The notes under the pieces are model-generated. The model worked only from the letters and a program-made list of their open reading frames with translations. It was not told the origin of the DNA and ran no database searches. The position numbers and the translations under genes are program-made. From contig DATFXM010000194.1 in NCBI GenBank assembly GCA_035315885.1, positions 172,825 to 236,824 on the forward strand: a stretch of 64,000 bases of DNA, written 5' to 3'. How positions within the stretch are numbered: position 1 is the stretch's first letter; each line of letters begins with the position of its first letter. This document shows positions 13,998 to 63,545 of the stretch, one piece after another. Source of the DNA: Blastocatellia bacterium. Its GTDB lineage: Bacteria; Acidobacteriota; Blastocatellia; UBA7656.

Positions 13998-14137
13998 GAT
14001 TGGTTTCTGGTTTCTGGTTCCTGGTTTACGGTTCCACCTTGCCGATTGCTCGCAGCCCGGGCTGTTCGTCGCATTGACTCACGTTTCGGACACCAGAACC
14101 GGACCAGAAACCAGGAACGAGAAACCAGGGAACTCAG
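13998..14137. repeat. Palindromic heptamer element (ggtttct/agaaacc).
   Basis: Left arm ggtttctggtttctggttcctggtttacggttcc. Right arm ccagaaccggaccagaaaccaggaacgagaaaccagg. Confidence 0.8.
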
Positions 14138-15133: not shown

Positions 15134-15164
15134 TTATTCCCCTCAAAATGTCTCAAACAATCGA

Positions 15165-44006: not shown

Positions 44007-44708
44007 ATGTTCAACAAAGTGAAGGCGCGGGCGGCCACGGGATTTTGCGCCCTGACCGCCATCCTGGTTGGCACTTTGGTGTTGACGCCGCACGGAGGAT
44101 CCTTTGCCCAATCAGGCCGGAAGATCCCCAAAAAGCCACCCGGCACTCAGCAGCAGGACTCACCGCCGCCATCCGATTCAAGCAAGTCCAAAGAAGCATC
44201 GAACGACAATCAGTCAGATAACAAGAAGCCCGCGATACCGGTGGCGGTCGTCAGCAACGTGGCTTTCGTCGGAAGTTACGATCTGCAGCTTGCCGGGCTG
44301 GTTACGGATGGAATACTCTCGCGGCTCTCTGAAACCCACGCAGTGCAGGCCAGCACCGCTGGAACGAATTTGAATCGCAAGGAGGCGAGCGACCTCGCGA
44401 AGAAATCAACCGACACTTACGTCCTGTGGTTCGAGTTGCAGGCCGACGTGATCGATAGTCGGTCCAGTATAGGTGGAGTTGATCCCAGAAGCATGTATGT
44501 TGATTTCGTAGTTTTCGCGCCGGGGAGCAACAAACAGAAGACGTCCGGTCACGTGTATCAGCGCGGGCGAGGTCAGGGCGGAATTCCTGGTAATGGACCG
44601 TCGTCCACCTGGACCGTCGAATACTCGCTTCGCAACGCCGGGCGTGAGACAGCCGACCGGCTGCTGGATGCACTGGGGTTGGCATCGCTGCCCCAGATAC
44701 CTCATTAG
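44007..44708 (+). CDS. Secreted hypothetical protein with a low-complexity Ser/Asp/Lys-rich linker.
   Basis: Signal peptide/TM AATGFCALTAILVGTLVLTPHG. No recognisable domains. Confidence 0.5.
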   Translation: MFNKVKARAATGFCALTAILVGTLVLTPHGGSFAQSGRKIPKKPPGTQQQDSPPPSDSSKSKEASNDNQSDNKKPAIPVAVVSNVAFVGSYDLQLAGLVTDGILSRLSETHAVQASTAGTNLNRKEASDLAKKSTDTYVLWFELQADVIDSRSSIGGVDPRSMYVDFVVFAPGSNKQKTSGHVYQRGRGQGGIPGNGPSSTWTVEYSLRNAGRETADRLLDALGLASLPQIPH

Positions 44709-44775
44709 ATCCTCTATTGCTGAGCGCCAACCTGCAAAACAAGACAGGCCACGAGTAGTTCGGCCGGAACACCGA

Positions 44776-46320
44776 ATGAAATACGGCTTCGTAATAGACC
44801 ATCGCAAATGCATCGGATGCCACGCCTGCACCATCGCTTGCAAGTCCGAGCATCAAGTTCCGGTGGGCTCGTTCAGGACCTGGGTCAAATACATTGAAGA
44901 GGGTTCTTACCCGGACACACGTCGCCACTTCGCGGTTCTGCGTTGCAATCATTGCGAGAATGCACCCTGCGTCACCATCTGTCCGGTCAGAGCTCTGTTC
45001 AAGCGGGACAATGGAATTGTCGATTTCGACGGCGACCGCTGCATCGGCTGCAAGGCGTGTATGCAAGCCTGTCCATACGATGCGCTGTATATAAATCCAA
45101 ATACCAATACCGCCGAGAAGTGCAACTACTGCGCGCATCGCGTCGAAAATCTGATCGAGCCGGCATGCGTGATCGTTTGTCCGGTTCAGGCAATAATCTC
45201 CGGAGACCTGGACGACCCTTCATCGCACATCTCGAGGCTCGTGGCTACTGAGTCCACGCTTGTTCGGAAACCCGAAGCCAGAACAAATCCAAAGCTCTAT
45301 TACATTGAAGCAAGCGATACGGCGCTGCGGCCGGCCGAGCAATCGCACGCCGGAGGATACATCTGGTCCGAAATCCAGATGGACGCGATTGCTCGTGATG
45401 CTCAGGCGCTGGCTGCCTCCGAAGCGAAGGCCCGCACCACCTACGACGTTTCGCACGACCGGCCGTGGGGATGGAAGGTCTCGGCTTATCTCTGGACCAA
45501 GTCGATCTCGGCCGGCGCGTTTCTGCTTGCGGCGATAGCGATACTGTTCGGATACGTTCGCGGTCAGAATTGGCTGTTCAACAGCGCGGCACCTCAGGTC
45601 GCGCTGGTGTTTCTTGGTCTGACACTCTTTCTATTGATCGCGGACCTTAAGCGTCCCGAAAGGTTTCTGAGAATCCTGCTTTGGCCGCAATGGAAGTCAT
45701 GGCTTGTGGTTGGAGGGTACATACTGCTGGCCTACGGAGCGATCGCCGGCGGGTGGCTCCTGCTTCAGTGGTTTACTACCGATGCCGACCTGGACGCGGC
45801 GGTCGTCGGCGTTGGCGGAGTTGTTGCAGCGGCTGCTGCGGTGTACTCGGCATTTCTCTTTCGCCAGGCGCGGGGCCGGGTATTTTGGCACAGCCCCATC
45901 GTTGCATTTCATTTGTTTGTTCAGGCGTTGTTGGCCGGCGCGGCCGCGCTTATGGTAGTACTCGCGGTCGATTCTGCCCTCGAAGGGAATCTGCTCTTCG
46001 GCTCGAGCTATGTCTTCTTGCAATACGAACTGGCGGGAAGCCTCGTCGCTCATCTCATACTGATGACTGGCGAAGTATTCATGCCGGAAGAGAGCGCCGA
46101 ACGAAAACGAGCCGCGCGGTTGATAAGCCACGGCATATTTGCCTGGAGATTTTGGTTGGGCTGCGTGGTCATCGGCGGGTTGATTCCGTTGGCGATGGCC
46201 ATCAGAGGCTTCGAACAGATGCCCGCAGTGGCGATCCCCGCTTGTGTTGCCGCCCTCGCGGGGCTGCTGCTCTGGGAACATATCTGGGTACAGGCGGGAC
46301 AGGCGGTCCCGCTTAGCTGA
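44776..46320 (+). CDS. 4Fe-4S ferredoxin-type subunit (PsrB/NrfC/DmsB-like) fused to an ~8-TM NrfD/PsrC-like membrane anchor.
   Basis: Start at MKYGFVIDHRKCIGCHACTIAC. Four Cys clusters (CIGCHAC..C, CNHCENAPC..C, CIGCKACMQACP, CNYCAHR...C). The C-terminal ~270 aa carry about 8 hydrophobic helices. Confidence 0.75.
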   Translation: MKYGFVIDHRKCIGCHACTIACKSEHQVPVGSFRTWVKYIEEGSYPDTRRHFAVLRCNHCENAPCVTICPVRALFKRDNGIVDFDGDRCIGCKACMQACPYDALYINPNTNTAEKCNYCAHRVENLIEPACVIVCPVQAIISGDLDDPSSHISRLVATESTLVRKPEARTNPKLYYIEASDTALRPAEQSHAGGYIWSEIQMDAIARDAQALAASEAKARTTYDVSHDRPWGWKVSAYLWTKSISAGAFLLAAIAILFGYVRGQNWLFNSAAPQVALVFLGLTLFLLIADLKRPERFLRILLWPQWKSWLVVGGYILLAYGAIAGGWLLLQWFTTDADLDAAVVGVGGVVAAAAAVYSAFLFRQARGRVFWHSPIVAFHLFVQALLAGAAALMVVLAVDSALEGNLLFGSSYVFLQYELAGSLVAHLILMTGEVFMPEESAERKRAARLISHGIFAWRFWLGCVVIGGLIPLAMAIRGFEQMPAVAIPACVAALAGLLLWEHIWVQAGQAVPLS

Positions 46321-46443: not shown

Positions 46444-49272
46444 ATGTCACAAGATGAGCAACACAGAAAACTAACTCAGCTCGCGAAGGACGCTGAGGAT
46501 CGCGGAGGGCAACTGCAGAACTACCCGCCTCCTGATAAATGGGACGACTGGGTTGAGTTGGATGCGCGCGCATGGCCGCGACGAGTCGAGCGTCACTATC
46601 AACTGATCCCGACTGTGTGCTTCAACTGCGAGTCGGCTTGCGGCCTGCTGGCCTACGTGGACAAACAGACCGGAGAGATCCGCAAGTTCGAAGGCAACCC
46701 TCTCCACCCCGGGTCGCGCGGGCGCAATTGCGCCAAGGGGCCGGCGACAATCAACCAGATCGATGATCCCGAACGAATCCTGTATCCGCTGAAGCGGAAA
46801 GGTAAGCGTGGCGAAGGCGAATGGGAGCGCACAACCTGGGACGAGGTTCTGGACACTTTCTCCGCACGAATACGGAAGGCGCTGATCGATGGGCGTCGCG
46901 ACGAAGTCGTCTACCACGTCGGACGCCCGGGTCACGACGGGTACATCGATCGAGTTCTTCAGGCGTGGGGAGTTGACGGTCACAACTCTCACACGAATAT
47001 CTGCTCTTCGTCCGCGCGTCTCGGTTACGCGCTTTGGCAAGGAGCGGACCGGCCCTCGCCCGATTATTCAAACGCCAGGTTTATTCTTCTGCTCAGCTCG
47101 CACCTGGAAACGGGGCACTACTTCAATCCGCATGCTCAACGAATAATCGAAGGCAAAATGAGCGGCGCCAAAATCGCGGTGATCGATCCGCGTCTTTCGA
47201 ACACCGCCTCCTCAGCGAACTATTGGTTGTCACCGTATCCCGGCACCGAAGCTGCGTTGCTGCTTTCGATGGCCTCAGTCATCCTGAATGAGAATCTCTT
47301 CGACCGCCAGTTCGTGCGACGCTGGGTGAACTGGGAAGAATTCATGCGCTTTGAGCGGCCGCACCTCCCGTCTTCATTTGAATCTTTCATTGACGAGCTC
47401 AGGCAAGTGTATTCAAGCTTCACGCCGGAGTTTGCTGCTGAGGAATGCGGCGTGGAAGCATCCACGATTGTCGAGGTAGCGCACGAGATCGCTCGAGCGG
47501 GTTCCGCGTTTGCCTCGCACGTATGGCGCAGCGCGGCAAGCGGAAACCTCGGAGGTTGGCAGGTTGCACGCGCGTTGATGTTCCTTAACGTCCTGACTGG
47601 AAGCGTCGGAACTCGCGGGGGTGTTTGTCCTAACACGTGGAACAAATTCGTGGCGACTCCGTTTTCAAAGCCGGAGCCACAAAAAGTATGGAGTGAGCTC
47701 CTGTGGCCCCGCGAGTATCCCCTCTCGCATCACGAGCTGAGTTTCCTGCTTCCCCATTTATTGAAAGACGGGCGAGGCCATCTGTCGGCGTACTTCACTC
47801 GCGTTTACAACCCGGTTTGGACCAATCCTGATGGATTGAGTTGGATTGAGGTGTTGCGCGATGAGTCACTGATTGAGCTTCATGCAGCGCTGACGCCGGT
47901 ATGGAGCGAGACCGCGTGGTTTGCCGACTATGTCTTGCCGATGGGCCTGGGCGCTGAGCGGCATGACTTGATGAGCCAGGAGACGCACTCTGCTCAATGG
48001 ATTTCGTTTAGACAGCCGGTCAAACGAGTGGTCGCCGAGAGATCCGGCGCCCACGTGGACTACACGTATCAGGCCAACCCCGGCGAGGTTTGGGAAGAGG
48101 ACGAGTTCTGGATCGAGTTGTCGTGGAGGATCGATCCCGACGGAAGTCTCGGCGTACGCCGACATTTCGAGTCCCCGTACCGGCCCGGCGAAAAGGTGTC
48201 GATCGAAGAGTACTATCGGTGGATCTTCGAAAACAGCATACCCGGCCTGAAAGAACAGGCAGCGAGCATGGGCCAGGAGCCGCTCGACTACATGCGACGG
48301 ATCGGCTCGTTCTCGGTAAGGAAGAATGTCTACGATCTGCACGAGGCTGCGGTCTCCGAGGCACAGCTCGAAAACGCACGGATCGACGATCAAACCGGAA
48401 GGATAATCAAGCCCGGGGTGGGTGCGATGAGCGCCGTCGGCTTGATGATCGACGGAGAGCCGCGCGTCGGGTTCAACACGCCCTCGCGGAAGCTCGAGTT
48501 GTACTCCAGGACGATGGCAGAATGGAAGTGGCCTGAGCACAGCCTGCCGGGTTACATGCGCAGTCACATACACTGGAGAGACCTGGAGCGCGGCTCGGGG
48601 GAATACATTCTGGTGCCTACTTTTCGGCTACCTACGCTGATTCACACTCGCTCGGGCAACGCGAAGTGGTTGTATGAAATCTCGCATACGAATCCGTTAT
48701 GGGTTAACCCCGGTGACGCGAAGGTGCTCGGCTTCGAGAATGGGGCGCTGGTCAGAGTGAACACGGAGATCGGATACTTCGTGATTCGGGCCTGGGTGAC
48801 TGAAGGAATCAGGCCTGGCGTAGTTGCGTGTTCGCACCATCTCGGCAGGTGGCGTCTTAAGCGTGAGGAAGGCGCGGACCGCTGGGCCTCTGCCCTGGTA
48901 GATCTGGAAGAACTCGGTGAAGGCCGGTGGAAGCTGAGACGCGTTGAAGGGATCGCGCCGTTCGAAAGCGCGGACCCCGATTCGGAAAGAATCTTCTGGC
49001 GCGAAGCAGGCGTACATCAGAATCTGGCTTTCCCGGTGCATCCGGACCCGGTGAGCGGAATGCACTGCTGGCATCAGCGAGTGCGACTGGAAAGCGCGAA
49101 AGACGGCGATCAGTACGGGGACGTCGTGGTGGACACGAAGCTGTCTCGAGATGTCTATCGCAAGTGGTTGGAGATGACGCGGCCCGCTCCCGGACCCGAG
49201 GGTCTGAGGCGACCGCGATGGTTCTCACGTCCGGTCAGGCCCGCCGATGAGGTGTACGTCATGACGGTTTAG
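46444..49272 (+). CDS. Molybdopterin (bis-MGD) oxidoreductase catalytic subunit of the Psr/Phs/Ttr/Arr-like clade. No twin-arginine signal.
   Basis: N-terminal 4Fe-4S motif CFNCESACGLL...NCAKG. Its length and the PGVVACSHHLGRW region are typical of Mo-bisPGD enzymes. The N-terminus MSQDEQHRKLTQLAKD lacks an RR motif. Confidence 0.75.
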   Translation: MSQDEQHRKLTQLAKDAEDRGGQLQNYPPPDKWDDWVELDARAWPRRVERHYQLIPTVCFNCESACGLLAYVDKQTGEIRKFEGNPLHPGSRGRNCAKGPATINQIDDPERILYPLKRKGKRGEGEWERTTWDEVLDTFSARIRKALIDGRRDEVVYHVGRPGHDGYIDRVLQAWGVDGHNSHTNICSSSARLGYALWQGADRPSPDYSNARFILLLSSHLETGHYFNPHAQRIIEGKMSGAKIAVIDPRLSNTASSANYWLSPYPGTEAALLLSMASVILNENLFDRQFVRRWVNWEEFMRFERPHLPSSFESFIDELRQVYSSFTPEFAAEECGVEASTIVEVAHEIARAGSAFASHVWRSAASGNLGGWQVARALMFLNVLTGSVGTRGGVCPNTWNKFVATPFSKPEPQKVWSELLWPREYPLSHHELSFLLPHLLKDGRGHLSAYFTRVYNPVWTNPDGLSWIEVLRDESLIELHAALTPVWSETAWFADYVLPMGLGAERHDLMSQETHSAQWISFRQPVKRVVAERSGAHVDYTYQANPGEVWEEDEFWIELSWRIDPDGSLGVRRHFESPYRPGEKVSIEEYYRWIFENSIPGLKEQAASMGQEPLDYMRRIGSFSVRKNVYDLHEAAVSEAQLENARIDDQTGRIIKPGVGAMSAVGLMIDGEPRVGFNTPSRKLELYSRTMAEWKWPEHSLPGYMRSHIHWRDLERGSGEYILVPTFRLPTLIHTRSGNAKWLYEISHTNPLWVNPGDAKVLGFENGALVRVNTEIGYFVIRAWVTEGIRPGVVACSHHLGRWRLKREEGADRWASALVDLEELGEGRWKLRRVEGIAPFESADPDSERIFWREAGVHQNLAFPVHPDPVSGMHCWHQRVRLESAKDGDQYGDVVVDTKLSRDVYRKWLEMTRPAPGPEGLRRPRWFSRPVRPADEVYVMTV

Positions 49273-51043: not shown

Positions 51044-52033
51044 CTACTGGGCGTCAGCCGGTCCGTATATGATCGCGGAACTATCCACCATCTGATGGAG
51101 TGAGTCTGGTTTGTCTATCTCCGGGTCAAAGACGCAGGTTCGATTTCTGCCGCTCAGCTTTGCCCGGTAAAGCGCCTGGTCGGCTTTCTGGACCAGTTCG
51201 AGAGCAGTCAATCCGTCTCGCGGGAAGGATGCGACGCCGAGGCTGATCGTGATGAGCATGGTTAGGGTCGGATCGGTCGCAGACGCGTGGAACGCGTTGG
51301 ACTCAACCCTTGCTCGAATGGCTTCCGCGACCTTGAACCCGTTGTTCTGCCCTTCGACGTAGGCCATGTACTCTTCGCCGCCGTACCTTGCAGCCTTCTC
51401 CACGCTCCCGACGATCTCGCTTATTATCTGACCTACATCGCGAATCGTGTAGCTTCCGACCAGATGTCCGCGGCCGTCGTTTACACGTTTGAAGTGGTCC
51501 AGGTCCATCATCAGAACGCTGACCTCTTCGGTTTCGGCAGTGCTTGCGGCACGATTGATCAAACGGTCCAGATCGGCAAACAAGCTCCTTCGCGAGCGAA
51601 GCCCGGTTAGGTCGTCGTATTGAGTCATCTTGTGAAGCCGTTCCTGGAAGTCGGCTTCAAACTCATCGAGCATCGCGAACTTGATCACGTGATTTCCGAC
51701 CTTCACCCGGTCCCCGTCTTCCAGCAACTGCTGAGCGGTCAGCCGTGCGCCGTTGAGGTAGGTGCCGTTTGTTGAGCCGAGATCGCTGATGTAGTACTCA
51801 ACGCAGGTAGCTTGATCGAGTCTGAGGATTTCGACGTGAAGGCGGGAGGCGATTTCGTCTCTGAGGACGAGGTCGGCTTGAGAGCCCCGGCCGATCAGGG
51901 TCTGCTCCTTCTCGACCTTTATGGTCAGACCTAAGGATGGGCCCTGCAGAACGACGAGCACCGGTCGTTTTTTGAGATTCGACTGCGGCACGTCCCGCAG
52001 ATCCAGCTTTACCGTTCGTTCCGCGTCACTCAT
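51044..52033 (-). CDS. FHA-domain diguanylate-cyclase-like protein (GGDEF with a GGEEY signature).
   Basis: FHA core (LIGRGSQADLVLRDEIASRLH...SDLGSTNGTYLNG). GGDEF domain with the RYGGEEY motif in place of GG(D/E)EF. Confidence 0.75.
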   Translation of the reverse strand: MSDAERTVKLDLRDVPQSNLKKRPVLVVLQGPSLGLTIKVEKEQTLIGRGSQADLVLRDEIASRLHVEILRLDQATCVEYYISDLGSTNGTYLNGARLTAQQLLEDGDRVKVGNHVIKFAMLDEFEADFQERLHKMTQYDDLTGLRSRRSLFADLDRLINRAASTAETEEVSVLMMDLDHFKRVNDGRGHLVGSYTIRDVGQIISEIVGSVEKAARYGGEEYMAYVEGQNNGFKVAEAIRARVESNAFHASATDPTLTMLITISLGVASFPRDGLTALELVQKADQALYRAKLSGRNRTCVFDPEIDKPDSLHQMVDSSAIIYGPADAQ

Positions 52034-54518: not shown

Positions 54519-54944
54519 ATGAGTGATTTGCTATTCAGGAAGCCGAGTGTGGGTAAGGAAATTTTGTCTCATTGCGGCCGCTGCAAGGACGAGCGGACGC
54601 ACATTGTGACCGCGATGGACGGCGATGTTGTTCGTCGGGTCACCTGCTCGACGTGCGGCAGCACGCACAATTACCGGCCGCCGGCGACGAAGCGGCCGGT
54701 AAGAAGCGGAGCCGGCCGTACCCGCAGCGAAGGGGGAACTCAAAAGCAGGCCTTTCGGATTGATCCGAGCCGCCCGGTGAGAGACTACGACATGCACGCA
54801 AACTTCAGTGAAGGAGAGGTGATCAGTCACCCGAAGTTCGGACTGGGTGAAGTTCAGACCTCTCTTGCGCCTAACAAGATCGAAGTACGCTTCACTGAAG
54901 GCACACGGTTACTGCTGCACAACATGAAAAGTGCTGAGTACTGA
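54519..54944 (+). CDS. Zinc-ribbon protein with a C-terminal beta-rich domain.
   Basis: CGRCKDERTH...CSTCGSTHNY four-Cys ribbon. C-terminal KFGLGEV...IEVRFTEG. Confidence 0.5.
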   Translation: MSDLLFRKPSVGKEILSHCGRCKDERTHIVTAMDGDVVRRVTCSTCGSTHNYRPPATKRPVRSGAGRTRSEGGTQKQAFRIDPSRPVRDYDMHANFSEGEVISHPKFGLGEVQTSLAPNKIEVRFTEGTRLLLHNMKSAEY

Positions 54945-55098
54945 GTGCCGAGTGCCGAGTTGTGAATGATCAGCTCGGGCCGCGGAGACGCCGCGGCCTG
55001 CGCAGCGACAGTTGAGGCGCTCAGAGTTTCACTGAGGCACAGTTGAACTGGCCACGCGAGAACTTGCAAGAGCTGTGGTGCGCTTCTAGAACCGGCCT

Positions 55099-55338
55099 TT
55101 ACTTGAAGAAGCTGGCGTTCTTCTGGATGAAGTGACGCCATTTGTCTGGGACGTAGGCTTCCACAAAGATCGCAGAAACGGGACAGGCAGGGCGGCACGC
55201 GTCGCAGTTAGTGCAGGCGGCCGGATCGATGTACATCTGTGGTTCTCCCGGCCCCCCTTGAATGCAGTCTTCCGGACACACATCGACGCAATACAGCTCT
55301 TTTGCGCCTATGCACGGCTCACAGATAACGTAGGCCAA
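55099..55338 (-). CDS. Ferredoxin (Azotobacter-type 7Fe/8Fe 2x[Fe-S] class).
   Basis: CIGAKELYCVDVCPEDCI and CTNCDACRPACP. Confidence 0.8.
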   Translation of the reverse strand: MAYVICEPCIGAKELYCVDVCPEDCIQGGPGEPQMYIDPAACTNCDACRPACPVSAIFVEAYVPDKWRHFIQKNASFFK

Positions 55339-55356: not shown

Positions 55357-55614
55357 CTATTTGTAGTGGTCGGCATTAATCTGGGTAAAGTGCTTCCACT
55401 GCTCTGGCAAGTCGTCTTCGGTAAAGATCGCCTGCACCGGACAGGCCGGCTCACACGCGCCACAATCGATGCACTCATCCGGGTGTATGTATAACAGCTC
55501 CGAAGTTTCGAAATCCGGCTCATCCTTCCGCGGGTGAATGCAATCTACCGGGCAGACGTCCACGCAAGCCGTGTCCTTCGTCCCGATACACGGTTCTGCT
55601 ATAACGTAGGTCAT
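55357..55614 (-). CDS. Ferredoxin (second tandem copy).
   Basis: [18 protein letters not shown] and [12 protein letters not shown]. Confidence 0.8.
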
Positions 55615-55724
55615 CTAGCACTCCTTTCGTGATTTCTCGAAGCAAGGCATTAACAACTATAGAATGATTCCTCAGCCAGCCGATACAAATTTGCTCAATT
55701 TTTTTTAAAGAGTCAATCCCAAAC

Positions 55725-55995
55725 TTTTAGTAAGCGAACTGGCGAAGGGACGAATCGGCGACGCGGAGACGAGAGACGAAGTGACGCGGAGAGGAGGGAC
55801 GGGGTGAGGAGGGATGCGGTGACGCGGTGAGGAGAGACGCCGTGACGTGACGCGTCCGTTGGTCGCCCCTTCGCACTTTCGCCCATTGCCCCTTCTCTCC
55901 CCGTCCGTCCCTCCTCTCCGCGTCTCCGCGTCTCTCCTCTCCGAGTCGCCCTTCTCCCCTTCTCCCTTCGCCCATTCGCTCCCCGTCCGTAGTCG
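55725..55995. repeat. Oligopurine/oligopyrimidine imperfect palindrome.
   Basis: gacgcggagacgagagacgaagtgacgcggagaggagggacggggtgaggaggg ... ccttctctccccgtccgtccctcctctccgcgtctccgcgtctctcctctcc. Confidence 0.8.
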
Positions 55996-55998
55996 CGT

Positions 55999-56652
55999 TC
56001 AGTCATGCTTGGGCTCGAAGGTGACATGAGGAATCATCGTGGCCTTTTCCTTCATCGTTACACGACCGGCCAGCTTCTTCTGCACGCGCTCGGCCGGCAC
56101 AAATGCTACCTTGCTGTCTACAAGCTGCTGGTTGGGCCGATAACCGAGCCCAAACTCAGGCAGCTCCGGCCGATTCGTCAGGCGCTTCAGGTCCCAGATC
56201 GTTTCGTTCCTGCTGTACGCGCAAATCTCTGTCTCGCGGCTCATGATGATCGCCTCTTCCGGACAGGCGTCTACACAGAACCCACAAAAGACACAGCGCA
56301 ACATGTCGATTTCAAATCGAGCTGGGTACTTCTCGATCTGCGGATCAGGATGCTCTGCAGGCTCGATGTAGATACAATCGGCAGGGCACGCAGTAGCACA
56401 CATATAACAGGCCACGCACCGCGGCGTCCCATCTTCCCTCGTTGTCAGAATGTGAGCGCCCCGATAGCGATCTGAGTAAGCGCGGCGCTCCTCCGGATAC
56501 CGGATCGTGGCGTCAACTTTGCCCGTCAGATTGTCGATCATCCGCGTCATCGTGAGCCCCATTCCCGAGAGCGGAGCAAGTACTTCCTTCGCGATCGACG
56601 ACTCTGCAGCCGTCCGGTCCGCAACGTTTATGACCTTCGGAGTCTTCTTCAT
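55999..56652 (-). CDS. nuoI: NADH-quinone oxidoreductase subunit I.
   Basis: Two 4Fe-4S motifs, CVACYMCATACP and CVFCGFCVDACP. Confidence 0.85.
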   Translation of the reverse strand: MKKTPKVINVADRTAAESSIAKEVLAPLSGMGLTMTRMIDNLTGKVDATIRYPEERRAYSDRYRGAHILTTREDGTPRCVACYMCATACPADCIYIEPAEHPDPQIEKYPARFEIDMLRCVFCGFCVDACPEEAIIMSRETEICAYSRNETIWDLKRLTNRPELPEFGLGYRPNQQLVDSKVAFVPAERVQKKLAGRVTMKEKATMIPHVTFEPKHD

Positions 56653-56655
56653 AAC

Positions 56656-58266
56656 TCAACCATTTGCCAGCACACCCGGAATGCGGGTCTGCTCGATAGT
56701 AATACCCTTGAGGGCGGGCTCGGTGAGGGACATCTCCTGGAACACTTCCTCTACCGACATCCACGGAGCATTCTCGCCCGATGCATGAAGCAACATCGCA
56801 AAAACCTCCCAGGCCGGCAGCGCATCGGCTGGCGGATCAATCGCCCGACCCGCCCACTGAACTCGCCCCTGGAAGTTTGTATAAGTGCCATCCTCCTCGG
56901 ACCACACCGCGAGCGGCAGAACAATATCTGCTCGACTCTGCCATTCGGCCTTATGTGCGGCCATCACTACCGAGTATTCGAGTGACTCAAGAAGCTCTGC
57001 AAGCTTTGCTTCAGCGGCCTCATCGCCTTCTCTTCGAACCAGCGGCTCGAGGTAACTTATTATTCCGGTCTTGACCTTACCCGACTTTGCTGCCTGAATA
57101 GCTCCGTCGATCGAGCCCAGCCCGTTTCCAAAACCCAGCTTGAGTGCGCCAGATGTATTCGGGTGTTTATCAATTCGCCTGAGAATCTGGTCTTCGCGTT
57201 GGGTCACCGCGACATCCTCGTTACCAAACCGAAATTCGATGCTGGTTGTGCCAAGCCCGCCAAGATACTTCTTAAACAGATAAAGCGCCTCGTTGGTCAA
57301 ACAGGAAGAGGCGAAGCCCAACACCGAATTGCCGCCGCCGTTCGATTGAGCTGACGCAATTCTGGACACCACTGCCCGCGCCGCATCTTCCCAGGTCACC
57401 GGAGCCTGTAGGCCATCACCACCCTTCATCAAAGGCCGGGCGATTCGATCTTGTTTGGCGATCTCGTGAAAGCTGAGACGGCCTTCGTCGCAAAGCCAAC
57501 TGCTGTTGACCTCTGTGTTGCGTCTGGGAAGCAGCCTGAAAATTGTTCCGTCGCGATGATCGATGCGGACGTTGCAAGCCGTTGAACACCCTGCGCAGAT
57601 CGAGTCGGTGCTGTTCAGGAACCAGACTCGGCACTTGAACCTGAAGTCGCGCGACGTCAAAGCACCTACCGGACAGATATCAACCACGTTTCCTGAATAG
57701 GGGTTCTCGAGAGGCCGGTCTTCGAACGTGCCGATCGCCACGTGATCGCCTCGATTGAAGAACTGCATCTCGCCCGTTCCGGTTATGTGGTTGCAGAACC
57801 TTATGCACCTGGAGCAGAGTACGCAGCGCTCCTGATCGAGCACGACCATCGGGCCAAGATCCACGGCTTTTCGTTTGTGGACCTTCAACTCTAGCGGGAT
57901 CTCGCTCGTATGAAGCCCGTAAACCATGTAGTAGTCCTGCAAGCGGCACTCGCCGGCCTGATCGCACACCGGACAATCCACTGGATGGTTTATGAGCAGG
58001 AACTCCAGAACACCTCGCACTGCCTGCTTGACCCTCTCGTTCTCCGAGCGCACAACCATGCCTTCGCTGACCACCGTGGTGCAGGAGGGCGTCAGCTTTG
58101 GCATCTTCTCGACCTCAACCAGACACATGCGACAGTTGCCATCGATCGGAAGGTCCGGGTGATAGCAGTAGTGCGGGATCTCGACTCCGTGGTCTGCCGC
58201 GGCCTGAATTATTGTCTGGCCCGGCCTGGCTTCGATCTCTTGGTCGTTTAAGGTGAACTTTGGCAT
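56656..58266 (-). CDS. nuoG: NADH-quinone oxidoreductase subunit G (short form).
   Basis: 2Fe-2S N-terminus (HYCYHPDLPIDGNCRMCLVEV). HPVDCPVCDQAGECRLQD. CVLCSRCIRFC. Confidence 0.85.
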   Translation of the reverse strand: MPKFTLNDQEIEARPGQTIIQAAADHGVEIPHYCYHPDLPIDGNCRMCLVEVEKMPKLTPSCTTVVSEGMVVRSENERVKQAVRGVLEFLLINHPVDCPVCDQAGECRLQDYYMVYGLHTSEIPLELKVHKRKAVDLGPMVVLDQERCVLCSRCIRFCNHITGTGEMQFFNRGDHVAIGTFEDRPLENPYSGNVVDICPVGALTSRDFRFKCRVWFLNSTDSICAGCSTACNVRIDHRDGTIFRLLPRRNTEVNSSWLCDEGRLSFHEIAKQDRIARPLMKGGDGLQAPVTWEDAARAVVSRIASAQSNGGGNSVLGFASSCLTNEALYLFKKYLGGLGTTSIEFRFGNEDVAVTQREDQILRRIDKHPNTSGALKLGFGNGLGSIDGAIQAAKSGKVKTGIISYLEPLVRREGDEAAEAKLAELLESLEYSVVMAAHKAEWQSRADIVLPLAVWSEEDGTYTNFQGRVQWAGRAIDPPADALPAWEVFAMLLHASGENAPWMSVEEVFQEMSLTEPALKGITIEQTRIPGVLANG

Positions 58267-58269
58267 TTT

Positions 58270-58400
58270 CTTTAGTTCTGAGTGCTGAGTGCTGAGTTGT
58301 TGGTACTGAGTTCCTGATTCTCAATACTGAGTTTTGGTCATGTGATCCTCGGATTTGAGGAGCTTTATCTCAAGAAACAACTCAGCATTCAGCACTTCAA
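58270..58400. repeat. Partial palindromic heptamer element (ctgagtg/cactcag type) inside the nuo operon, between nuoG and nuoF.
   Basis: agttctgagtgctgagtgctgagttgttggtactgagtt ... aactcagcattcagcacttc. Confidence 0.7.
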
Positions 58401-59644
58401 TTACAGCAGGCTTCAAATTCGTGCCTGAATTTTGTCAGAAAACTCCTGATAGGCATTACATCCGCATCGGCGAGCGGGCAAATCGTCTTACCCTCCATGT
58501 TGTCCACCACCTTCAACAGCAGGTCGATATCCGATCGCTTGCCTTCGCCCGCTACCATCCTCCTAAGAAGCTTCGCCGCCCAGCCCGTTCCCTCGCGGCA
58601 TGGAGTGCACTGTCCGCAGGACTCATGCGCATAAAAGTCTGCAATAACCGACAGCGCAGCGGGCATGCTCACCGTTTCGTCGAACACGATCATTCCACCC
58701 GAACCGAGCATTGAGCCCGCCTTCATCAACGACTCGTAATCCAGCAAAACGCCTTCACACTCGGCGGCAGTCAACACAGGGACAGATGACCCGCCCGGTA
58801 TTACTGCTTTCAGCTTACGGCCGTCCTTTATCCCTCCGGCCTCGTTGTTGATGAAATCCATGAGCGGATACCCCATATCGACTTCGTAGACTCCAGGCTT
58901 GGCTACGTGGCCGGACACCGAAAAAAGTTTTGTACCCTTGCTCTTCTCGGTTCCTATCGCCGCGTAGGCCGCCCCGCCGTGCTCAATGATCCACGGCACC
59001 GCACAGAGCGTCTCGACGTTGTTGACCACGGTCGGTGATGCAAGGAAGCCGCTCGTAGCGGGAAACGGAGGCTTGATTCTCGGATACCCGCGATACCCCT
59101 CGAGCGATTCAATCAGCGAAGTCTCTTCGCCGCAAATGTACGCACCTGCCCCCATATGCAGATGGATATCCAAGGCGAAGTCTCGGCCCATCACTGAAGG
59201 GCCCAGAATGCCGGCTTTGTACGCTTCGTCAAGCGCGGTCTCGATCACCTCCTCGAGAAAACCGAACTCACCCCTCATATAGATGTATGAGAGATGGCAC
59301 TCCAGCGCGAGACTCGCGATTGCCATGCCCTCTATCAACAAGTGAGGGTCGCGCTCAAGCAGTAGCCGGTCCTTGAATGTCCCGGGCTCGCTCTCATCTG
59401 CATTGCACAACAGGTACGTAGGCTTGCCGCTGTTGCGTGGAACAAAGCTCCATTTCATGCCGGTCGGGAACCCCGCCCCGCCACGCCCGCGCAGCCCGCT
59501 AGTCTTAACCTCTTCAACGAGGGTGGCCGGCTGCATCCCCAGCGCCTTTTCGAGGACCTTGTACCCGTTGCGCTCGCGATATGTCTGGATGGACTTCTGG
59601 CCCGGCTTGTCGGTGTTCGCCAGCAGGATTTTATTCATTGGCAA
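58397..59644 (-). CDS. nuoF: NADH-quinone oxidoreductase subunit F.
   Basis: GLRGRGGAGFPTGMKW, an FMN/NADH site, and ESCGQCTPCREG. Confidence 0.9.
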   Translation of the reverse strand: MPMNKILLANTDKPGQKSIQTYRERNGYKVLEKALGMQPATLVEEVKTSGLRGRGGAGFPTGMKWSFVPRNSGKPTYLLCNADESEPGTFKDRLLLERDPHLLIEGMAIASLALECHLSYIYMRGEFGFLEEVIETALDEAYKAGILGPSVMGRDFALDIHLHMGAGAYICGEETSLIESLEGYRGYPRIKPPFPATSGFLASPTVVNNVETLCAVPWIIEHGGAAYAAIGTEKSKGTKLFSVSGHVAKPGVYEVDMGYPLMDFINNEAGGIKDGRKLKAVIPGGSSVPVLTAAECEGVLLDYESLMKAGSMLGSGGMIVFDETVSMPAALSVIADFYAHESCGQCTPCREGTGWAAKLLRRMVAGEGKRSDIDLLLKVVDNMEGKTICPLADADVMPIRSFLTKFRHEFEACCN

Positions 59645-60107
59645 GCTTCTCGATTGTTTCTCGCACGCGCTCGGGGCTTAGGTTTTCAAAATAGCGATCC
59701 CCAACCTGCATCACCGGAGCGGTGTCGCACGACGCAAGACATTCGGTGAAATCCCAACTGAACTTCCCATCAGGTGTTATCTGACTGCGATCAACCCCGA
59801 GCTTCTCCTTGATCACGTCGGCGCATGGATACGTACCCATGAGCCAGCAACTCACGTTGCGGCAAAGCTCCAGGTGGTACTTACCAACCGGCTTCTTTCG
59901 AAGAAGCGTGTAAAAAGTTGCGACGCTCAAGACATCAGCGGGAGGATAGCCCATCAGACCGCCGACGTATTCGGCGACCTCCTGCGAAATCCACCCAAAC
60001 TCGCGCTGAGCAAGAGCGAGCACCGGTACTAGAGCTGCCCGCTTCTCAGGATAGTGAGAGAGAATCCTCTCGTAGCTGCGTTGCGCCTCTTCGCTAAACT
60101 GAATCAT
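59631..60107 (-). CDS. nuoE: NADH-quinone oxidoreductase subunit E.
   Basis: [10 protein letters not shown]...CLASCDTAP 2Fe-2S thioredoxin-like motif. Confidence 0.85.
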
Positions 60108-62419
60108 CGATCGAGCTCTCCAGCGATGATGTTGTAACTACCTAGTGCGGCAATGGCATCGGCAACCAGTGATCCCTCAATCATCTTCGGATACGCCGAG
60201 AAGAGCGAGAAGCACGGGCCGCGTGCGTGCACACGCCAGGGCTGCATCGATCCATCGCTGATGATGTAGTAGCCCAACTCGCCGTTTGCACCCTCGGTGT
60301 ATCCATACACTTCACCCGGAGGAGGTTGTATTCCATGCATCGTGAGCTTGAAATGGTTCATCAAGTCTTCGATGTTGGTATACACGCCTTTTTTTGGCGG
60401 CAGGGTGATACGCCGGTCATCGACCTGAAATGGGCCCTCCGGCAGATTCTCGAGCGCCTGCTCTACTATTCGCACGCTCTGCCGCATCTCTTCCATCCTT
60501 ACCAGGTAACGGTCGTAGACGTCTCCCCGGTTTCCAATAGGCACTTCAAAATCGAAGTCATCGTAGCTCGAGTAAGGATGCACCTGACGGATGTCGTAGG
60601 GCACACCCGTCGCTCGCAACATTGGACCCGTAAACCCCCAGTCGATTGCGTCGGTCTTGTTTATCTCCGTAACTCCGACTGCACGTTGTTTGAACAGACG
60701 GCTGTGCGTGTTCAAACGGTCCAGATCGTCAATGTACTTCGGCAGCCGCTTTAAAACCTCCCGACAGCGCGGGACAAAGTCGGCAGGCAGCTCCGAGGCA
60801 AGTCCGCCAACTCGCACGTAGCTGACCATCATCCGCACGCCGGCTGTCATCTCCAGCAGATCGTAGATCTCTTCTCTCGGCTCGAACGAGTACCAGAAGT
60901 TGGTTATCGCGCCCAGGTCCACCAGATTTGCGCCAATGCACACCATGTGGTCCATGATGCGGGACAGCTCGCCCAGCAATACCCGGATGTATTGCACTCG
61001 TTTTGGTACTTCGATCCCAAGAAGCTTCTCGACGGCACACGCATACCCGACGTTGTTCAAGAACGACGAACAGTAGTTCAAACGATCGGTGTACGGTATT
61101 ACCTGATTCCACTGGTGGGTCTCGGCCATCTTTTCAAAACAGCGATGCAGGTAACCTATCTCCACATCGGCATCGACTATTTTTTCGCCGTCCAGACGAC
61201 AGACGATTCGCAGAGTTCCGTGAGTAGCCGGATGCGATGGGCCCACATTGACGATCGTCGGCTCAGGGCTCAGCCGGTCCTGCTCGTGACCCTCCCACTG
61301 AGTCCGGTACTCGATCGGCAGCTTGTAATCACGAGATAGCGGCGTTCGCGCTCCCGCTTCGTGATCCTTCCTGAGTGCGTATCCAACGAATTCCTCGTGG
61401 CAAAGAATGCGGCGAAGGTCGGGGTGATTCCGGAATCGAACGCCGAACATGTCATATGTTTCGCGTTCCCACCAATTCGCCGTCTTCCAGATTGAGCTGA
61501 CCGAATCTATCTCGGGCGCCGACTCCGCCAGGGGCACCTTCAGCCTCAGCCGGTGCCCGTGATCTATCGAGTACATTTGGTAGACGACGTTGAATCGCTC
61601 CTCGCGGGTCGTATTCGGATAGCCCAGATAGTCTGCACCGGTGATCGAGCTCAGCAGATCGAATTTCGTTGACGAATCAGCTTTAAGAGTACGGCAGATC
61701 TCCACGACCTGGTCGGGTCTGACGGTGACCGCAAGATCCCCACGAAAGTCGTTCACGTCCAGAACCTGATCCTTGAATCTATCCTGAATCAAGGCCGCGA
61801 TGGGATTCTGCGGCGCCGCGGGCTCTCGGGTTATATGAACCAGTCTGACTGCCTCGTGGGCCTGCTGTTCGGCGATCAGCAGCGTTTTGGGAGAACTTTC
61901 GGTGATTTCTTTTTTCATCCGCTCGCGCAGCTCGGCGCGGGCATCGGCATCAACGAAGCGCTCTTTTTGAATGATCTCTCTGATCATCAGGACCGCTTGA
62001 AGTACGGCTTCGGGCGAAGGAGGACAGCCGGGAATGTAGACGTCTACCGGGATCAACTCGTCGATGCCCTGCATCACGTGATAGGCGCGGTAGAAGCCGC
62101 CCGAGGTTGCGCACGCGCCCATCGAGATCACCCACTTCGGATCAGGCATCTGATCGTAGATCTTCTTGAGCACCGGACCCATTTTGTCGGTGATGGTGCC
62201 CATGACCATGAGCAAATCGGACTGGCGAGGGCTGAAGCGGACGACTTCGGCGCCGAAACGTGCGAGGTCGTAGTGGGCAGAGACCACGGACATGAACTCA
62301 ATTGCGCAGCAAGCGGTGCCGAAGGGCATGGGCCACAGCGAGTTCTTCCGCCCCCAGTTTGCCATTTCGCTTACTTTGGTTGTCAGGAAACTCTCGCCAA
62401 CTGTGGAGGCAGAACTCAT
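60104..62419 (-). CDS. nuoBCD: Fused NADH-quinone oxidoreductase subunits B-C-D in one 771-aa polypeptide.
   Basis: NuoB part: [11 protein letters not shown]...GACATSGG...IPGCPP. NuoC part: [26 protein letters not shown]. NuoD part: [18 protein letters not shown]...C-terminal [13 protein letters not shown]. The frame is continuous. Confidence 0.85.
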
Positions 62420-62499
62420 GTTGTCCCTCGATTGTTTTTGCGTAGTCCGCTCAGAAGTTGATCCTATTTGTCCGCGGTTCGAATTAAATCTTATCTCTG

Positions 62500-62830
62500 G
62501 GTATGGAGCCCGTCAAACATGGCGGTATTTTTTGGGGTGAGGAGATAAGGCGAATTGGCGAAGGGGCGGTGGCGTGATGCGGAGACGGGGAGAGGAGGGA
62601 CGGGGGAAGGAGGGAATGGGCGAAGGGGCGACCCGCACGGTTCAGCTGACACGGTTGCCCATTCTCTCTTCGCCCATTCGCGCCTTCGCCCATTCGCCCA
62701 TTCCCTCCTCTCCGCTCCCTCCTCCCCGCGTCCCCGCGTCGCCCCTTCGCTTCTCTTCCGCTCCGCTTGTGTCCTTCTCTACGCTACTGCATACTCGCTT
62801 CAGCATCTTCAATACGGCCCCTGGAGAAAA
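62500..62830. repeat. Oligopurine/oligopyrimidine imperfect palindrome.
   Basis: ggcgaaggggcggtggcgtgatgcggagacggggagaggagggacgggggaaggaggg ... cccattccctcctctccgctccctcctccccgcgtccccgcgtcgccccttcgc. Confidence 0.8.
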
Positions 62831-62834
62831 TGAC

Positions 62835-63323
62835 ATGCGGATATTCGGAAAGAATCTCTCAGACTACATTGCAGTGCAGAAGGGAATGCTTCTTCTGATC
62901 GCGCTTGTCGCGCTCGGGCGGCTAGCGCTCTCTCTGGCAGGAGTGTCAAATTCCGCTGCGAAGTGGCTCAGCGTCACCGCAGTGATGGCTCTCGGAGCAG
63001 TCTACGCCGGGATCAAAGTCAACAGCAGCGGCTTTGGCGGCTTCAGACACTTGCTCCCGATGGTGTTCTTCCAGGATGTCCTTGCCCAGCTTGTCGTTGC
63101 CGGCGGCATCGCCCTGGCAATCGTTACTCAAAAGGACAACATCTTCAGCGCGCCTGAGTACTCAGGAAACCGCGACGGCAAGACCTGGTCACATTCGGTC
63201 GCTCACCTTGTGCTCGGATTTATCGTAGCGCCGCTTGTGTCCTGGGGAATCTCTTCGTTGGTTCTGTTGCTTGCGCGCAAGACTTCGCCCGGCAAGCGCG
63301 ACGCCGAAGCCGCAAGCGCGTAG
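62835..63323 (+). CDS. Small integral membrane protein (4 TM), hypothetical.
   Basis: Start set at ATG 62835 (MRIFGKNLSDYIAVQKGMLLLIALVALG). The track's upstream extension is repeat-derived. Confidence 0.5.
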   Translation: MRIFGKNLSDYIAVQKGMLLLIALVALGRLALSLAGVSNSAAKWLSVTAVMALGAVYAGIKVNSSGFGGFRHLLPMVFFQDVLAQLVVAGGIALAIVTQKDNIFSAPEYSGNRDGKTWSHSVAHLVLGFIVAPLVSWGISSLVLLLARKTSPGKRDAEAASA

Positions 63324-63324
63324 A

Positions 63325-63545
63325 GTACGCGGAGGAAGGGGAGATGAAGAGATGAGGAGATGAAGAGATGAGGAGATGAGGAGATGAGGAGATGAGGGGA
63401 TGATGCGAAGGGGCGAAGGGGCGAGAAAAGTCAACGGTCTTCCGGATAGTATGTCTCCGCGTCACCGTGTCTCTCCTCCCCGCGTCCGTATCTCCCCTTC
63501 GCCCTTTCGCATATCTCGCTTCCCTGCCTCGTAGTACTTCCGGCC
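63325..63545. repeat. (gaggagat)n array plus pyrimidine-rich partner. It overlaps the 3' end of rarA.
   Basis: gagatgaagagatgaggagatgaagagatgaggagatgaggagatgaggagatgagggg ... gtctctcctccccgcgtccgtatctccccttcgccc. Confidence 0.7.

What the first reader, a model, noticed from the sequence alone, without database searches (positions are those of the whole stretch)
60104..62419. NuoB-NuoC-NuoD triple fusion
One uninterrupted 771-aa ORF carries three sets of diagnostic motifs in order.
- NuoB: N2-cluster cysteines ([23 protein letters not shown]).
- NuoC: [16 protein letters not shown]...HPDLRRIL.
- NuoD: [12 protein letters not shown]... and the C-terminal IIAGELDR.

CD fusions are well known. 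A BCD fusion is much rarer. It would fix the stoichiometry of the Q-module around cluster N2.
Basis: seen in the sequence. Interest (0 to 1): 0.55.

Follow-up and report, generated by a model that had tools for sequence, protein, structure and literature searches.

The report
Fused NuoB-C-D complex I gene
One real, conserved gene encodes three core subunits of respiratory complex I (NuoB, NuoC, NuoD) as a single protein; this architecture is uncommon but already recognised, and it is the norm in this bacterium's lineage, so the finding is correct but fairly ordinary.

Summary
Window 60104-62419 is one uninterrupted 771-aa ORF, on the minus strand, with NuoB, NuoC and NuoD domains in that order. 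All the quoted motifs are present.

It is not an assembly artefact. The same single ORF occurs in 30 of 80 species-level genomes recovered, mostly Blastocatellia and other Acidobacteriota MAGs. It also occurs in more than 100 protein clusters at 52-87% identity. The domains are conserved and the two linkers are free to vary.

The N2 cysteines and the quinone-site His/Tyr/Asp are invariant. This points to a working Q-module core of NADH:quinone oxidoreductase.

The gene heads an operon, nuoBCD-E-F-G-I, that encodes only the peripheral arm. No membrane-arm gene lies in the window, or within 10 kb in any relative.

The BCD architecture is already known. NCBIfam has a model for it (NF009808), Geobacter and Desulfococcus NuoBCD are described, and the exact protein is in NCBI as HMG37387.1, annotated only as 'subunit D'.

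This lineage falls below the NF009808 cut-off. In a D-domain tree it sits apart from the NF009808 type, next to lineages with separate nuoB plus fused nuoCD. That suggests a separate B-to-CD fusion.

Verdict: a new member of a known kind, of low interest.

The parts
60104..62419 (-). nuoBCD: a single 771-aa ORF (about 86 kDa) with an ATG start at 62419 and a TGA stop at 60104-60106
   Evidence: ORF list. Three Pfam domains in order. NCBIfam best hit is NF009808 B/C/D, 770 bits. A GAGGGA Shine-Dalgarno-like motif lies 4 nt upstream of the ATG. The start position is shared by the Blastocatellia homologues.
61955..62419 (-). NuoB domain (aa 1-155). It carries the four ligands of the [4Fe-4S] cluster N2: C37, C38, C103 and C132.
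   Evidence: TIGR01957 nuoB_fam scores 221.9 bits against a cut-off of 142.7. The alignment to T. thermophilus Nqo6 (2fug_6, query 9-156 = chain 17-164) puts these cysteines at Nqo6 C45/C46/C111/C140. All four are invariant in 52 homologues.
61805..61954 (-). B-C linker (aa 156-205)
   Evidence: Its length varies from 38 to 50 aa. Identity to distant homologues is only 14%, against 69% for NuoB. AF2 predicts two helices with low confidence, pLDDT about 46-55.
61340..61804 (-). NuoC domain (aa 206-360)
   Evidence: PF00329, aa 231-357, E = 1.4e-41. TIGR01961 scores 129.7 bits against a cut-off of 122.45.
61265..61339 (-). C-D linker (aa 361-385)
   Evidence: Length 23-29 aa, with 16% identity in distant homologues. 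It aligns in one stretch through the linker of E. coli NuoCD (7awt_D, query 205-771 = chain 19-596).
60107..61264 (-). NuoD domain (aa 386-771), with the quinone-site residues H400, Y449 and D501
   Evidence: TIGR01962 scores 507.7 bits against a cut-off of 459.35. An ungapped alignment to T. thermophilus Nqo4 places H400/Y449/D501 on H38/Y87/D139. All three are invariant in 52 homologues. The C-terminus is IIAGELDR, with no cysteines, so this is not a [NiFe] site.
59631..60107 (-). nuoE. Its ATG overlaps the nuoBCD stop codon (ATGA), which suggests translational coupling.
   Evidence: PF01257 E = 8e-48. TIGR01958 scores 154.2 bits against 142.4. Junction sequence read directly.
58397..59644 (-). 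nuoF
   Evidence: TIGR01959 scores 590.3 bits against a cut-off of 558.65. Pfam finds Complex1_51K, SLBB and NADH_4Fe-4S.
56656..58266 (-). nuoG, a short form of 536 aa
   Evidence: Pfam finds Fer2_4, NADH-G_4Fe-4S_3, Fer4_Nqo3 and Molybdopterin. TIGR01973 scores 449 bits, just below its cut-off of 470, and matches model positions 2-346 of 606.
55999..56652 (-). nuoI (217 aa, with N- and C-terminal extensions). It is the last gene of the operon.
   Evidence: TIGR01971 scores 117.8 bits against a cut-off of 113.05. Pfam finds a 4Fe-4S dicluster.
62488..62516 (-). Promoter-like site TTGACG-17-TAAGAT, about 70 nt upstream of the nuoBCD start
   Evidence: Consensus scan. It is the only hit in 8 kb, but shuffles give a mean of 3.5 hits, so this is suggestive only.

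Best explanation
This is a genuine, selectively maintained fusion gene from a Blastocatellia (Acidobacteriota) bacterium. Its 771-aa product forms the core of the Q-module of a proton-pumping NADH:quinone oxidoreductase (complex I).

The three parts have the usual roles:
- The NuoB part holds the terminal [4Fe-4S] cluster N2.
- The NuoD part, together with NuoB and with NuoH in the assembled enzyme, forms the quinone pocket.
- The NuoC part is the structural clamp.

Two poorly conserved linkers of about 50 and 25 residues tether the three parts. Otherwise they fold and dock as the separate subunits do.

The gene is the first of a five-gene operon, nuoBCD-nuoE-nuoF-nuoG-nuoI. This operon encodes exactly the hydrophilic arm. 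The BCD/E junction looks translationally coupled.

The membrane arm (NuoA, H, J, K, L, M, N) must be encoded elsewhere in the genome.

What is shown:
- ORF integrity.
- Domain identity.
- Conservation of the cofactor and quinone residues.
- Conservation of the fusion and of the operon across relatives.

What is inferred:
- The protein assembles with a separately encoded membrane arm.
- The selective benefit of the fusion is equimolar, co-translational assembly of the Q-module in a lineage whose nuo genes are dispersed.
- The fusion arose by joining nuoB to an already fused nuoCD.
For: ORF and domains:
- The ORF is intact and carries the three domains in order.
- C37/C38/C103/C132 and H400/Y449/D501 map onto Nqo6 and Nqo4 of T. 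thermophilus. They are invariant in 52 full-length homologues.
- Domains are conserved at 47-69% identity even in distant homologues. The linkers drop to 14-16% and vary in length.

Conservation of the fusion:
- More than 100 protein clusters carry all three Pfam domains.
- 30 of 80 species-level genome loci have one continuous ORF.

Operon context:
- NuoE, F, G and I follow immediately.
- The order BCD-E-F-G-I is conserved in all 17 close Blastocatellia loci, in the partial locus L016 and in L021, L024, L026 and L028.
- The stop and start codons overlap as ATGA.

Structure:
- The predicted fold of the C+D part matches E. coli NuoCD, with target TM-score about 0.8.

Origin:
- The nearest non-fused relatives (Thermoanaerobaculia, Bdellovibrionota) have adjacent nuoB plus a fused nuoCD.
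- Bdellovibrionota are reported to keep a separate nuoAHJKLMN cluster (PMC13147790).
Against: - No membrane-arm gene was found in the 64-kb window or within 10 kb of the gene in any of 30 fused loci. Association with a canonical membrane arm is therefore inferred, not shown.
- The AF2 model has low confidence for the NuoB part and the linkers. It cannot show that NuoB docks on NuoD as in complex I.
- No expression or protein data exist for this organism.
- The protein scores below the curated cut-offs of NF009808 (770 against 1156) and NF008728 (525 against 840).
Confidence: 0.88

Rival explanations
1. The long ORF is an assembly or sequencing artefact. Lost stop codons or compensating frameshifts would have joined three adjacent genes, nuoB, nuoC and nuoD.
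For: The source is a metagenome-assembled genome: the exact protein is HMG37387.1 from a Blastocatellia MAG. The linkers are poorly conserved.
Against: - The same continuous ORF, with co-linear linkers, is present in 30 independently assembled species-level genomes.
- It is also present in more than 100 protein clusters from different studies.
- Linker identity is 73-74% among close relatives, which fits coding sequence under selection.
- The reading frame is the same throughout.
Confidence: 0.01
2. The fused protein and the E-F-G-I products do not belong to a canonical complex I. They would form a stand-alone hydrophilic oxidoreductase, for example with the two ferredoxins encoded just downstream. 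Alternatively they would dock onto a different membrane module.
For: - The operon holds only hydrophilic subunits.
- No nuoA/H/J-N lies in 64 kb of window or within 10 kb in 30 relatives.
- In L020 the gene stands alone between unrelated genes.
- Two small ferredoxin genes lie downstream in most of the Blastocatellia loci that extend that far.
Against: - The quinone-site triad H400/Y449/D501 and the N2 ligands are invariant. This makes sense only with a NuoH-lined quinone tunnel.
- The NuoB N-terminus and the NuoD/NuoI parts that contact NuoH are of ordinary type, and the equivalog-domain scores lie above cut-off.
- There are no [NiFe] cysteines.
- The related Bdellovibrionota are reported to carry a separate nuoAHJKLMN cluster, so a split arrangement has a precedent in a related lineage.
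- The ferredoxins are separated from nuoI by a long hairpin block here and by 0.25-2.2 kb (usually about 1.5 kb) in relatives.
Confidence: 0.07
3. The fusion is the same evolutionary event as the curated NuoBCD family (NF009808, the Geobacter/Desulfobacterota type). The window protein would simply be a divergent member of it.
For: The domain order is the same and the length is similar (771 against 791-798 aa). NF009808 is the best-scoring NCBIfam model.
Against: - The score is 770 bits in two stretches, against a cut-off of 1156. The B-C linker is not aligned.
- A true member, P0121, scores 1333 bits and is only 43-45% identical to the window protein.
- In a D-domain NJ tree, P0121 pairs with a CD-type protein in 200 of 200 bootstraps. 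It never joins the window's clade (0 of 200).
- That clade also contains lineages with verified separate nuoB genes.
Confidence: 0.1

Closest known systems
NuoBCD of the NCBIfam NF009808 / PRK13292 type ('NADH-quinone oxidoreductase subunit B/C/D'). Examples are Geobacter sulfurreducens NuoBCD and the Desulfococcus multivorans 'cytoplasmic fusion protein NuoBCD'.
   Same: - One chain with NuoB, NuoC and NuoD in the same order and of similar length.
- Complex I context.
- The fusion product has been detected as a protein in D. multivorans and G. sulfurreducens proteomes (PMC5109826, PMC7894505).
   Different: - The window protein scores 770 bits against a cut-off of 1156, and the B-C linker is unrelated.
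- Identity to a true member (P0121) is about 43-45%.
- The two sit in separate positions in the D-domain tree.
- In D. multivorans the complete nuo gene set lies in a single cluster (PMC5109826). Here the operon holds only the peripheral arm.
E. coli NuoCD (NF008728; PDB 7awt_D, 7p61_C, 7z7r_C) and Aquifex aeolicus NuoCD2 (7q5y_B)
   Same: - The C-D fusion and its linker align in a single stretch.
- The predicted fold matches with a target TM-score of about 0.8.
- The quinone-site residues are conserved.
   Different: - E. coli NuoB is a separate 220-aa chain.
- The window protein scores 525 bits against a cut-off of 840 for NF008728.
- No solved structure contains a B-C-D single chain.
Adjacent nuoB plus fused nuoCD of Thermoanaerobaculia (Acidobacteriota) and Bdellovibrionota
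   Same: - These are the closest non-BCD relatives. The D domain is 56-62% identical, and they share a clade in the D tree (128 of 200 for the acidobacterial part).
- Their nuo genes are also dispersed: nuoB-nuoCD stands without other nuo genes in L040 and L058.
   Different: nuoB ends in a stop codon and nuoCD is a separate ORF.
Archaeal B-C-D single chain (P0197, 772 aa; Candidatus Methanospirareceae / Methanomicrobia MAGs)
   Same: The same three domains occur in one chain of almost the same length.
   Different: It is only 32% identical, is archaeal, and is probably part of an Fpo-like complex (my inference). It is almost certainly an independent fusion.

Membership tests
NuoB / PSST (PF01058, TIGR01957) | Family model score above the curated cut-off | tested here: met
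   TIGR01957 scores 221.9 bits against 142.7, and NF005012 scores 225 against 116. PF01058 has E = 1e-27.
NuoB / PSST (PF01058, TIGR01957) | Four cysteine ligands of cluster N2 (CCxxE ... C ... CP) | tested here: met
   C37, C38, C103 and C132 correspond to T. thermophilus Nqo6 C45/46/111/140, using the alignment offset. They are invariant in 52 homologues.
NuoC / 30 kDa (PF00329, TIGR01961) | Family model score above the curated cut-off | tested here: met
   TIGR01961 scores 129.7 bits against 122.45. PF00329 scores 142.3 bits against 22.5.
NuoD / 49 kDa (PF00346, TIGR01962) | Family model score above the curated cut-off | tested here: met
   TIGR01962 scores 507.7 bits against 459.35, and NF004739 scores 483.7 against 360.
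NuoD / 49 kDa (PF00346, TIGR01962) | Quinone-headgroup residues equivalent to Nqo4 H38, Y87 and D139, and absence of the [NiFe] cysteine motifs of the hydrogenase large subunit | tested here: met
   H400, Y449 and D501 align without gaps to H38/Y87/D139 and are invariant. The C-terminus is IIAGELDR, without cysteines. The identity of the Nqo4 residues comes from established knowledge of the T. thermophilus structure.
NuoBCD equivalog NF009808 (PRK13292) | B, C and D domains in one polypeptide, in that order | tested here: met
NuoBCD equivalog NF009808 (PRK13292) | Whole-protein score at or above the curated cut-off of 1156 bits | tested here: not met
   The window protein scores 770.2 bits in two stretches. 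Relatives P0060, P0096 and P0112 also score 731-775 bits. A true member, P0121, scores 1333.
NuoCD equivalog NF008728 (E. coli type) | Whole-protein score at or above the curated cut-off of 840 bits | tested here: not met
   524.8 bits.
14-subunit NADH:quinone oxidoreductase (complex I, NDH-1) | N-module NuoE, NuoF and NuoG, and the Q-module ferredoxin NuoI, encoded with the Q-module | tested here: met
   nuoE, nuoF, nuoG and nuoI follow directly on the same strand. E, F and I are above curated cut-offs. G scores 449 against 470 and is a short form.
14-subunit NADH:quinone oxidoreductase (complex I, NDH-1) | Membrane subunits NuoA, H, J, K, L, M and N present in the genome | not testable with these tools
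   They are absent from the 64-kb window and from 10 kb on either side in 30 related loci.

The most novel reading that the evidence does not exclude
The least ordinary reading still open has two parts.

First, the hydrophilic arm would be genetically uncoupled from the membrane arm throughout this clade: nuoBCD-E-F-G-I as its own operon, or even nuoBCD as a solitary gene.

Second, the B-to-CD fusion would be an independent, compensating adaptation that lets a pre-assembled arm be made as a free module. That module might work as a soluble NADH-oxidising enzyme, or might dock on more than one, or a non-canonical, membrane partner.
Probability: 0.06. Interest if true: 0.55.

Novelty: new member of a known kind. 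Interest (0 to 1): 0.17.

Why it matters
The practical value is modest.

1. It records that a whole acidobacterial lineage (Blastocatellia and relatives) makes the complex I Q-module core as one chain of about 86 kDa. Public annotation often hides this. The exact protein is labelled only 'subunit D', and in one relative the gene call was cut to a 589-aa 'CD' protein although the ORF is continuous.

2. The curated NuoBCD model (NF009808) does not capture this lineage, so automated pathway reconstructions may score NuoB and NuoC as missing.

3. B-C-D chains seem to have arisen more than once: this clade, the NF009808 type, an 829-aa type, and an archaeal type. Here the fusion accompanies a physical split of peripheral-arm and membrane-arm genes. 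That is a small but usable natural experiment on how gene fusion relates to operon break-up and complex I assembly.

4. No solved structure contains a B-C-D chain.

Tried and rejected
- Artefact hypothesis: rejected, because the continuous ORF recurs in 30 genomes.

- Fusion counts from tblastn coverage: the genome scan reported near-full query coverage for all 80 loci. This would have overstated the spread of the fusion. An ORF-level check showed that 46 of the loci (Thermoanaerobaculia, Bdellovibrionota and others) have separate nuoB plus nuoCD, one (L061) has separate nuoB, nuoC and nuoD, and three (L042, L044, L073) are disrupted or cut by a contig end.

- 'CD-only' proteins inside the BCD clade (P0114, P0119, P0120): these first looked like fissions. 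P0120 proved to be an internal-start gene call within a continuous 753-aa ORF. The other two were not checked.

- AlphaFold2 with a 52-sequence alignment: mean pLDDT 69, pTM 0.75, with low confidence for NuoB and both linkers. It says nothing reliable about the linker path. Foldseek only re-found E. coli NuoCD.

- NJ tree of the D domain: it separates the NF009808 type from this clade. It cannot resolve how many fusions or fissions occurred inside the clade; monophyly of all BCD forms was found in 28 of 200 bootstraps.

- Search for membrane-arm genes: none were found in the window or next to relatives. Multi-TM neighbours that were tested turned out to be MscS channels, a P-type ATPase, a polysaccharide exporter, or unassigned.

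- Promoter scan: one well-placed hit, but fewer hits than in shuffled sequence.

- Literature search for nuoBCDEFGI or nuoAHJKLMN operon splits: the only relevant result was the Bdellovibrionota report. Nothing was found on Acidobacteria.
Full report
**Observation**

The interval 60104-62419 holds one ORF of 771 codons on the minus strand, with an ATG start and no internal stop. The plus-strand reading is broken by many stops.

Pfam places three domains:
- Oxidored_q6 (NuoB) at aa 37-145
- Complex1_30kDa (NuoC) at aa 231-357
- Complex1_49kDa (NuoD) at aa 501-771

NCBIfam domain and subfamily models for NuoB, NuoC and NuoD all score above their curated cut-offs.

The B-C linker is at 61805-61954 and the C-D linker at 61265-61339.

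**Is the fusion real?**

A search of 5.8 billion protein clusters returned more than 100 clusters that carry all three Pfam domains at 52-87% identity. The named ones come from Blastocatellia and other Acidobacteriota MAGs.

A scan of one genome per species returned 80 loci. tblastn coverage alone suggested all were fused, so I checked ORFs directly:
- 30 loci have one continuous B-C-D ORF: L001-L028, L030 and L072.
- L029, L031-L041, L043 and L045-L080 (apart from L061 and L073), from Thermoanaerobaculia, Bdellovibrionota, Eisenbacteria and others, have a separate nuoB followed by a fused nuoCD. L061 has three separate genes, and L042, L044 and L073 are disrupted or cut by a contig end.

In a 52-sequence alignment the domains are well conserved. 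The linkers vary in length (38-50 and 23-29 residues). They fall to 14-16% identity in distant homologues, yet stay 73-74% identical among close ones. This is the signature of an old fusion kept by selection, not an assembly error.

The exact protein is already in NCBI as HMG37387.1 from a Blastocatellia MAG, on a 252,663-bp contig. It is annotated only as 'NADH dehydrogenase (quinone) subunit D'.

**Function**

The four N2 ligands (C37, C38, C103, C132) correspond to T. thermophilus Nqo6 C45/46/111/140, using the alignment offset. H400, Y449 and D501 align without gaps to the quinone-site residues H38, Y87 and D139 of Nqo4. All seven residues are invariant in the 52 homologues.

The C-terminus has no [NiFe]-type cysteines. 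The protein therefore looks like a fully competent Q-module core.

The AF2 model is only moderate (pLDDT 69, pTM 0.75) and is poor for NuoB and the linkers. Its C+D part matches E. coli NuoCD with a target TM-score of about 0.8. No solved structure contains a B-C-D single chain.

**Context**

On the same strand, nuoBCD is followed by four genes:
- nuoE, whose start overlaps the nuoBCD stop as ATGA
- nuoF
- a short nuoG (536 aa)
- nuoI (217 aa)

This is exactly the hydrophilic arm. There is no nuoA upstream. The neighbours there are an unknown membrane protein on the other strand and the 3' part of an mgsA-like gene.

No nuoH/J/K/L/M/N is present anywhere in the 64-kb window.

The order BCD-E-F-G-I is conserved in all the close Blastocatellia loci and in L021, L024, L026 and L028. 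L025 and L027 show BCD-G-I. In L020 the gene stands alone between metH-like and nth-like genes. None of the 30 fused loci has a nuo-like multi-TM gene within 10 kb.

The related Bdellovibrionota are reported to keep a separate, conserved nuoAHJKLMN cluster and a split arrangement (PMC13147790). The most likely reading is that the membrane arm is encoded elsewhere and the enzyme is an ordinary complex I. I could not test this on the full genome.

**Comparison with what is known**

The B-C-D architecture is recognised in databases and papers:
- NCBIfam has an equivalog, NF009808, named 'NADH-quinone oxidoreductase subunit B/C/D'.
- Spero et al. [quoted passage not shown]
- G. sulfurreducens NuoBCD and the D. 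multivorans 'cytoplasmic fusion protein NuoBCD' were detected by proteomics.
- One Blastocatellia orthologue (P0041) is already named B/C/D.

The window protein is not a member of NF009808 by the curated test. It scores 770 bits in two stretches, against a cut-off of 1156. Its relatives score 731-775, while the true member P0121 scores 1333.

A search of 1.84 billion 50%-identity representatives found only four B-C-D chains among the best 150, next to dozens of CD fusions:
- this clade
- P0121
- an 829-aa type (P0125)
- an archaeal 772-aa type (P0197)

The architecture is therefore uncommon in sequence space.

In an NJ tree of the D domain, the window's clade groups with Thermoanaerobaculia B+CD forms (128 of 200 bootstraps). 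P0121 pairs with a CD-type protein (200 of 200) and never enters the window's clade (0 of 200). This argues for at least two separate B-to-CD fusions. The tree cannot resolve the number of events within the clade.

One apparent 'CD-only' protein inside the clade, P0120, is an internal-start gene call in a continuous 753-aa ORF. Public annotations therefore understate the fusion.

**Verdict**

The fusion is real and functional-looking. It is fixed in its lineage and belongs to a known architectural type, while representing a lineage that the curated model does not cover.

It is a correct but low-surprise finding. The only mildly interesting points are its probable independent origin and its association with an operon that encodes the peripheral arm alone.

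Noticed in passing
window 55745-55990, 62538-62763 and 63345-63512: Long imperfect hairpins bracket the nuo operon. They are built from units with about 8-nt and 15-nt periodicity (GGCGAAGG / GACGCGGAGA / GAGGAGAT and their complements). Examples are arms 55757-55802 / 55905-55950 (46 nt, 89% complementary) and 62608-62631 / 62686-62709 (96%). They create spurious low-complexity ORFs at 55713-56027, 62484-62693 and 63189-63465. They may be REP-like intergenic elements or terminators.
   Followed up: partly
window 58281-58301 / 58376-58396 and 54930-54975: A second small repeat family, AGTGCTGAGTGCTGAGTT, forms a 21-nt hairpin (95% complementary) in the nuoG-nuoF intergenic gap. Another copy lies near 54930-54975.
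   Followed up: no
window 55357-55614 and 55099-55338 (minus strand): Two tandem paralogous small ferredoxin genes (85 and 79 aa, 2x[4Fe-4S]-type cysteine motifs, about 71% identical at the DNA level) lie just downstream of nuoI. The same pair is syntenic in most of the Blastocatellia loci that extend that far.
   Followed up: partly
window 56656-58266 and 55999-56652: NuoG is a short form: 536 aa, with TIGR01973 at 449 bits against a cut-off of 470, matching model positions 2-346 of 606. NuoI is long (217 aa), with N- and C-terminal extensions beyond the 121-position NuoI model.
   Followed up: no
window 44593-46320 and 46444-49272 (plus strand): A second fused respiratory gene: a 575-aa protein that joins a 4Fe-4S dicluster domain to an NrfD/PsrC-type membrane domain. 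It is followed by a 942-aa molybdopterin oxidoreductase. The pair resembles a Psr/ACIII/Qrc-like quinone-interacting module.
   Followed up: no
window 12321-15947 (minus strand): A cluster encoding ETF:quinone oxidoreductase plus ETF alpha and beta, next to fatty-acid synthesis genes (fabF, fabD, plsX). This is another quinone-reducing entry point in the same window.
   Followed up: no
L026 10007-12268 (Bacillota-labelled MAG, contig JAJYSJ010000005.1): The public protein P0120 (589 aa, named 'subunit D [Thermaerobacter sp.]') is the tail of a continuous 753-aa B-C-D ORF. The annotation chose an internal start and dropped the NuoB part.
   Followed up: yes
L020 9983-12271 (MAG labelled Terriglobia, 1.3-Mb contig): Here nuoBCD (58% identical) is a solitary gene between a metH-like gene and an endonuclease III-like gene, with no other nuo gene within 10 kb.
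   Followed up: partly
P0197 (772 aa) and P0203 (668 aa): P0197 is an archaeal (Methanospirareceae / Methanomicrobia) B-C-D single chain, only 32% identical. P0203 has an N-terminal extension of about 140 aa followed by NuoB and NuoD matches, with no NuoC match. It may be a B-D fusion lacking C.
   Followed up: partly
window 51044-52033 (minus strand): An FHA-GGDEF protein (a diguanylate cyclase with a forkhead-associated domain) lies a few kb downstream of the nuo operon.
   Followed up: no
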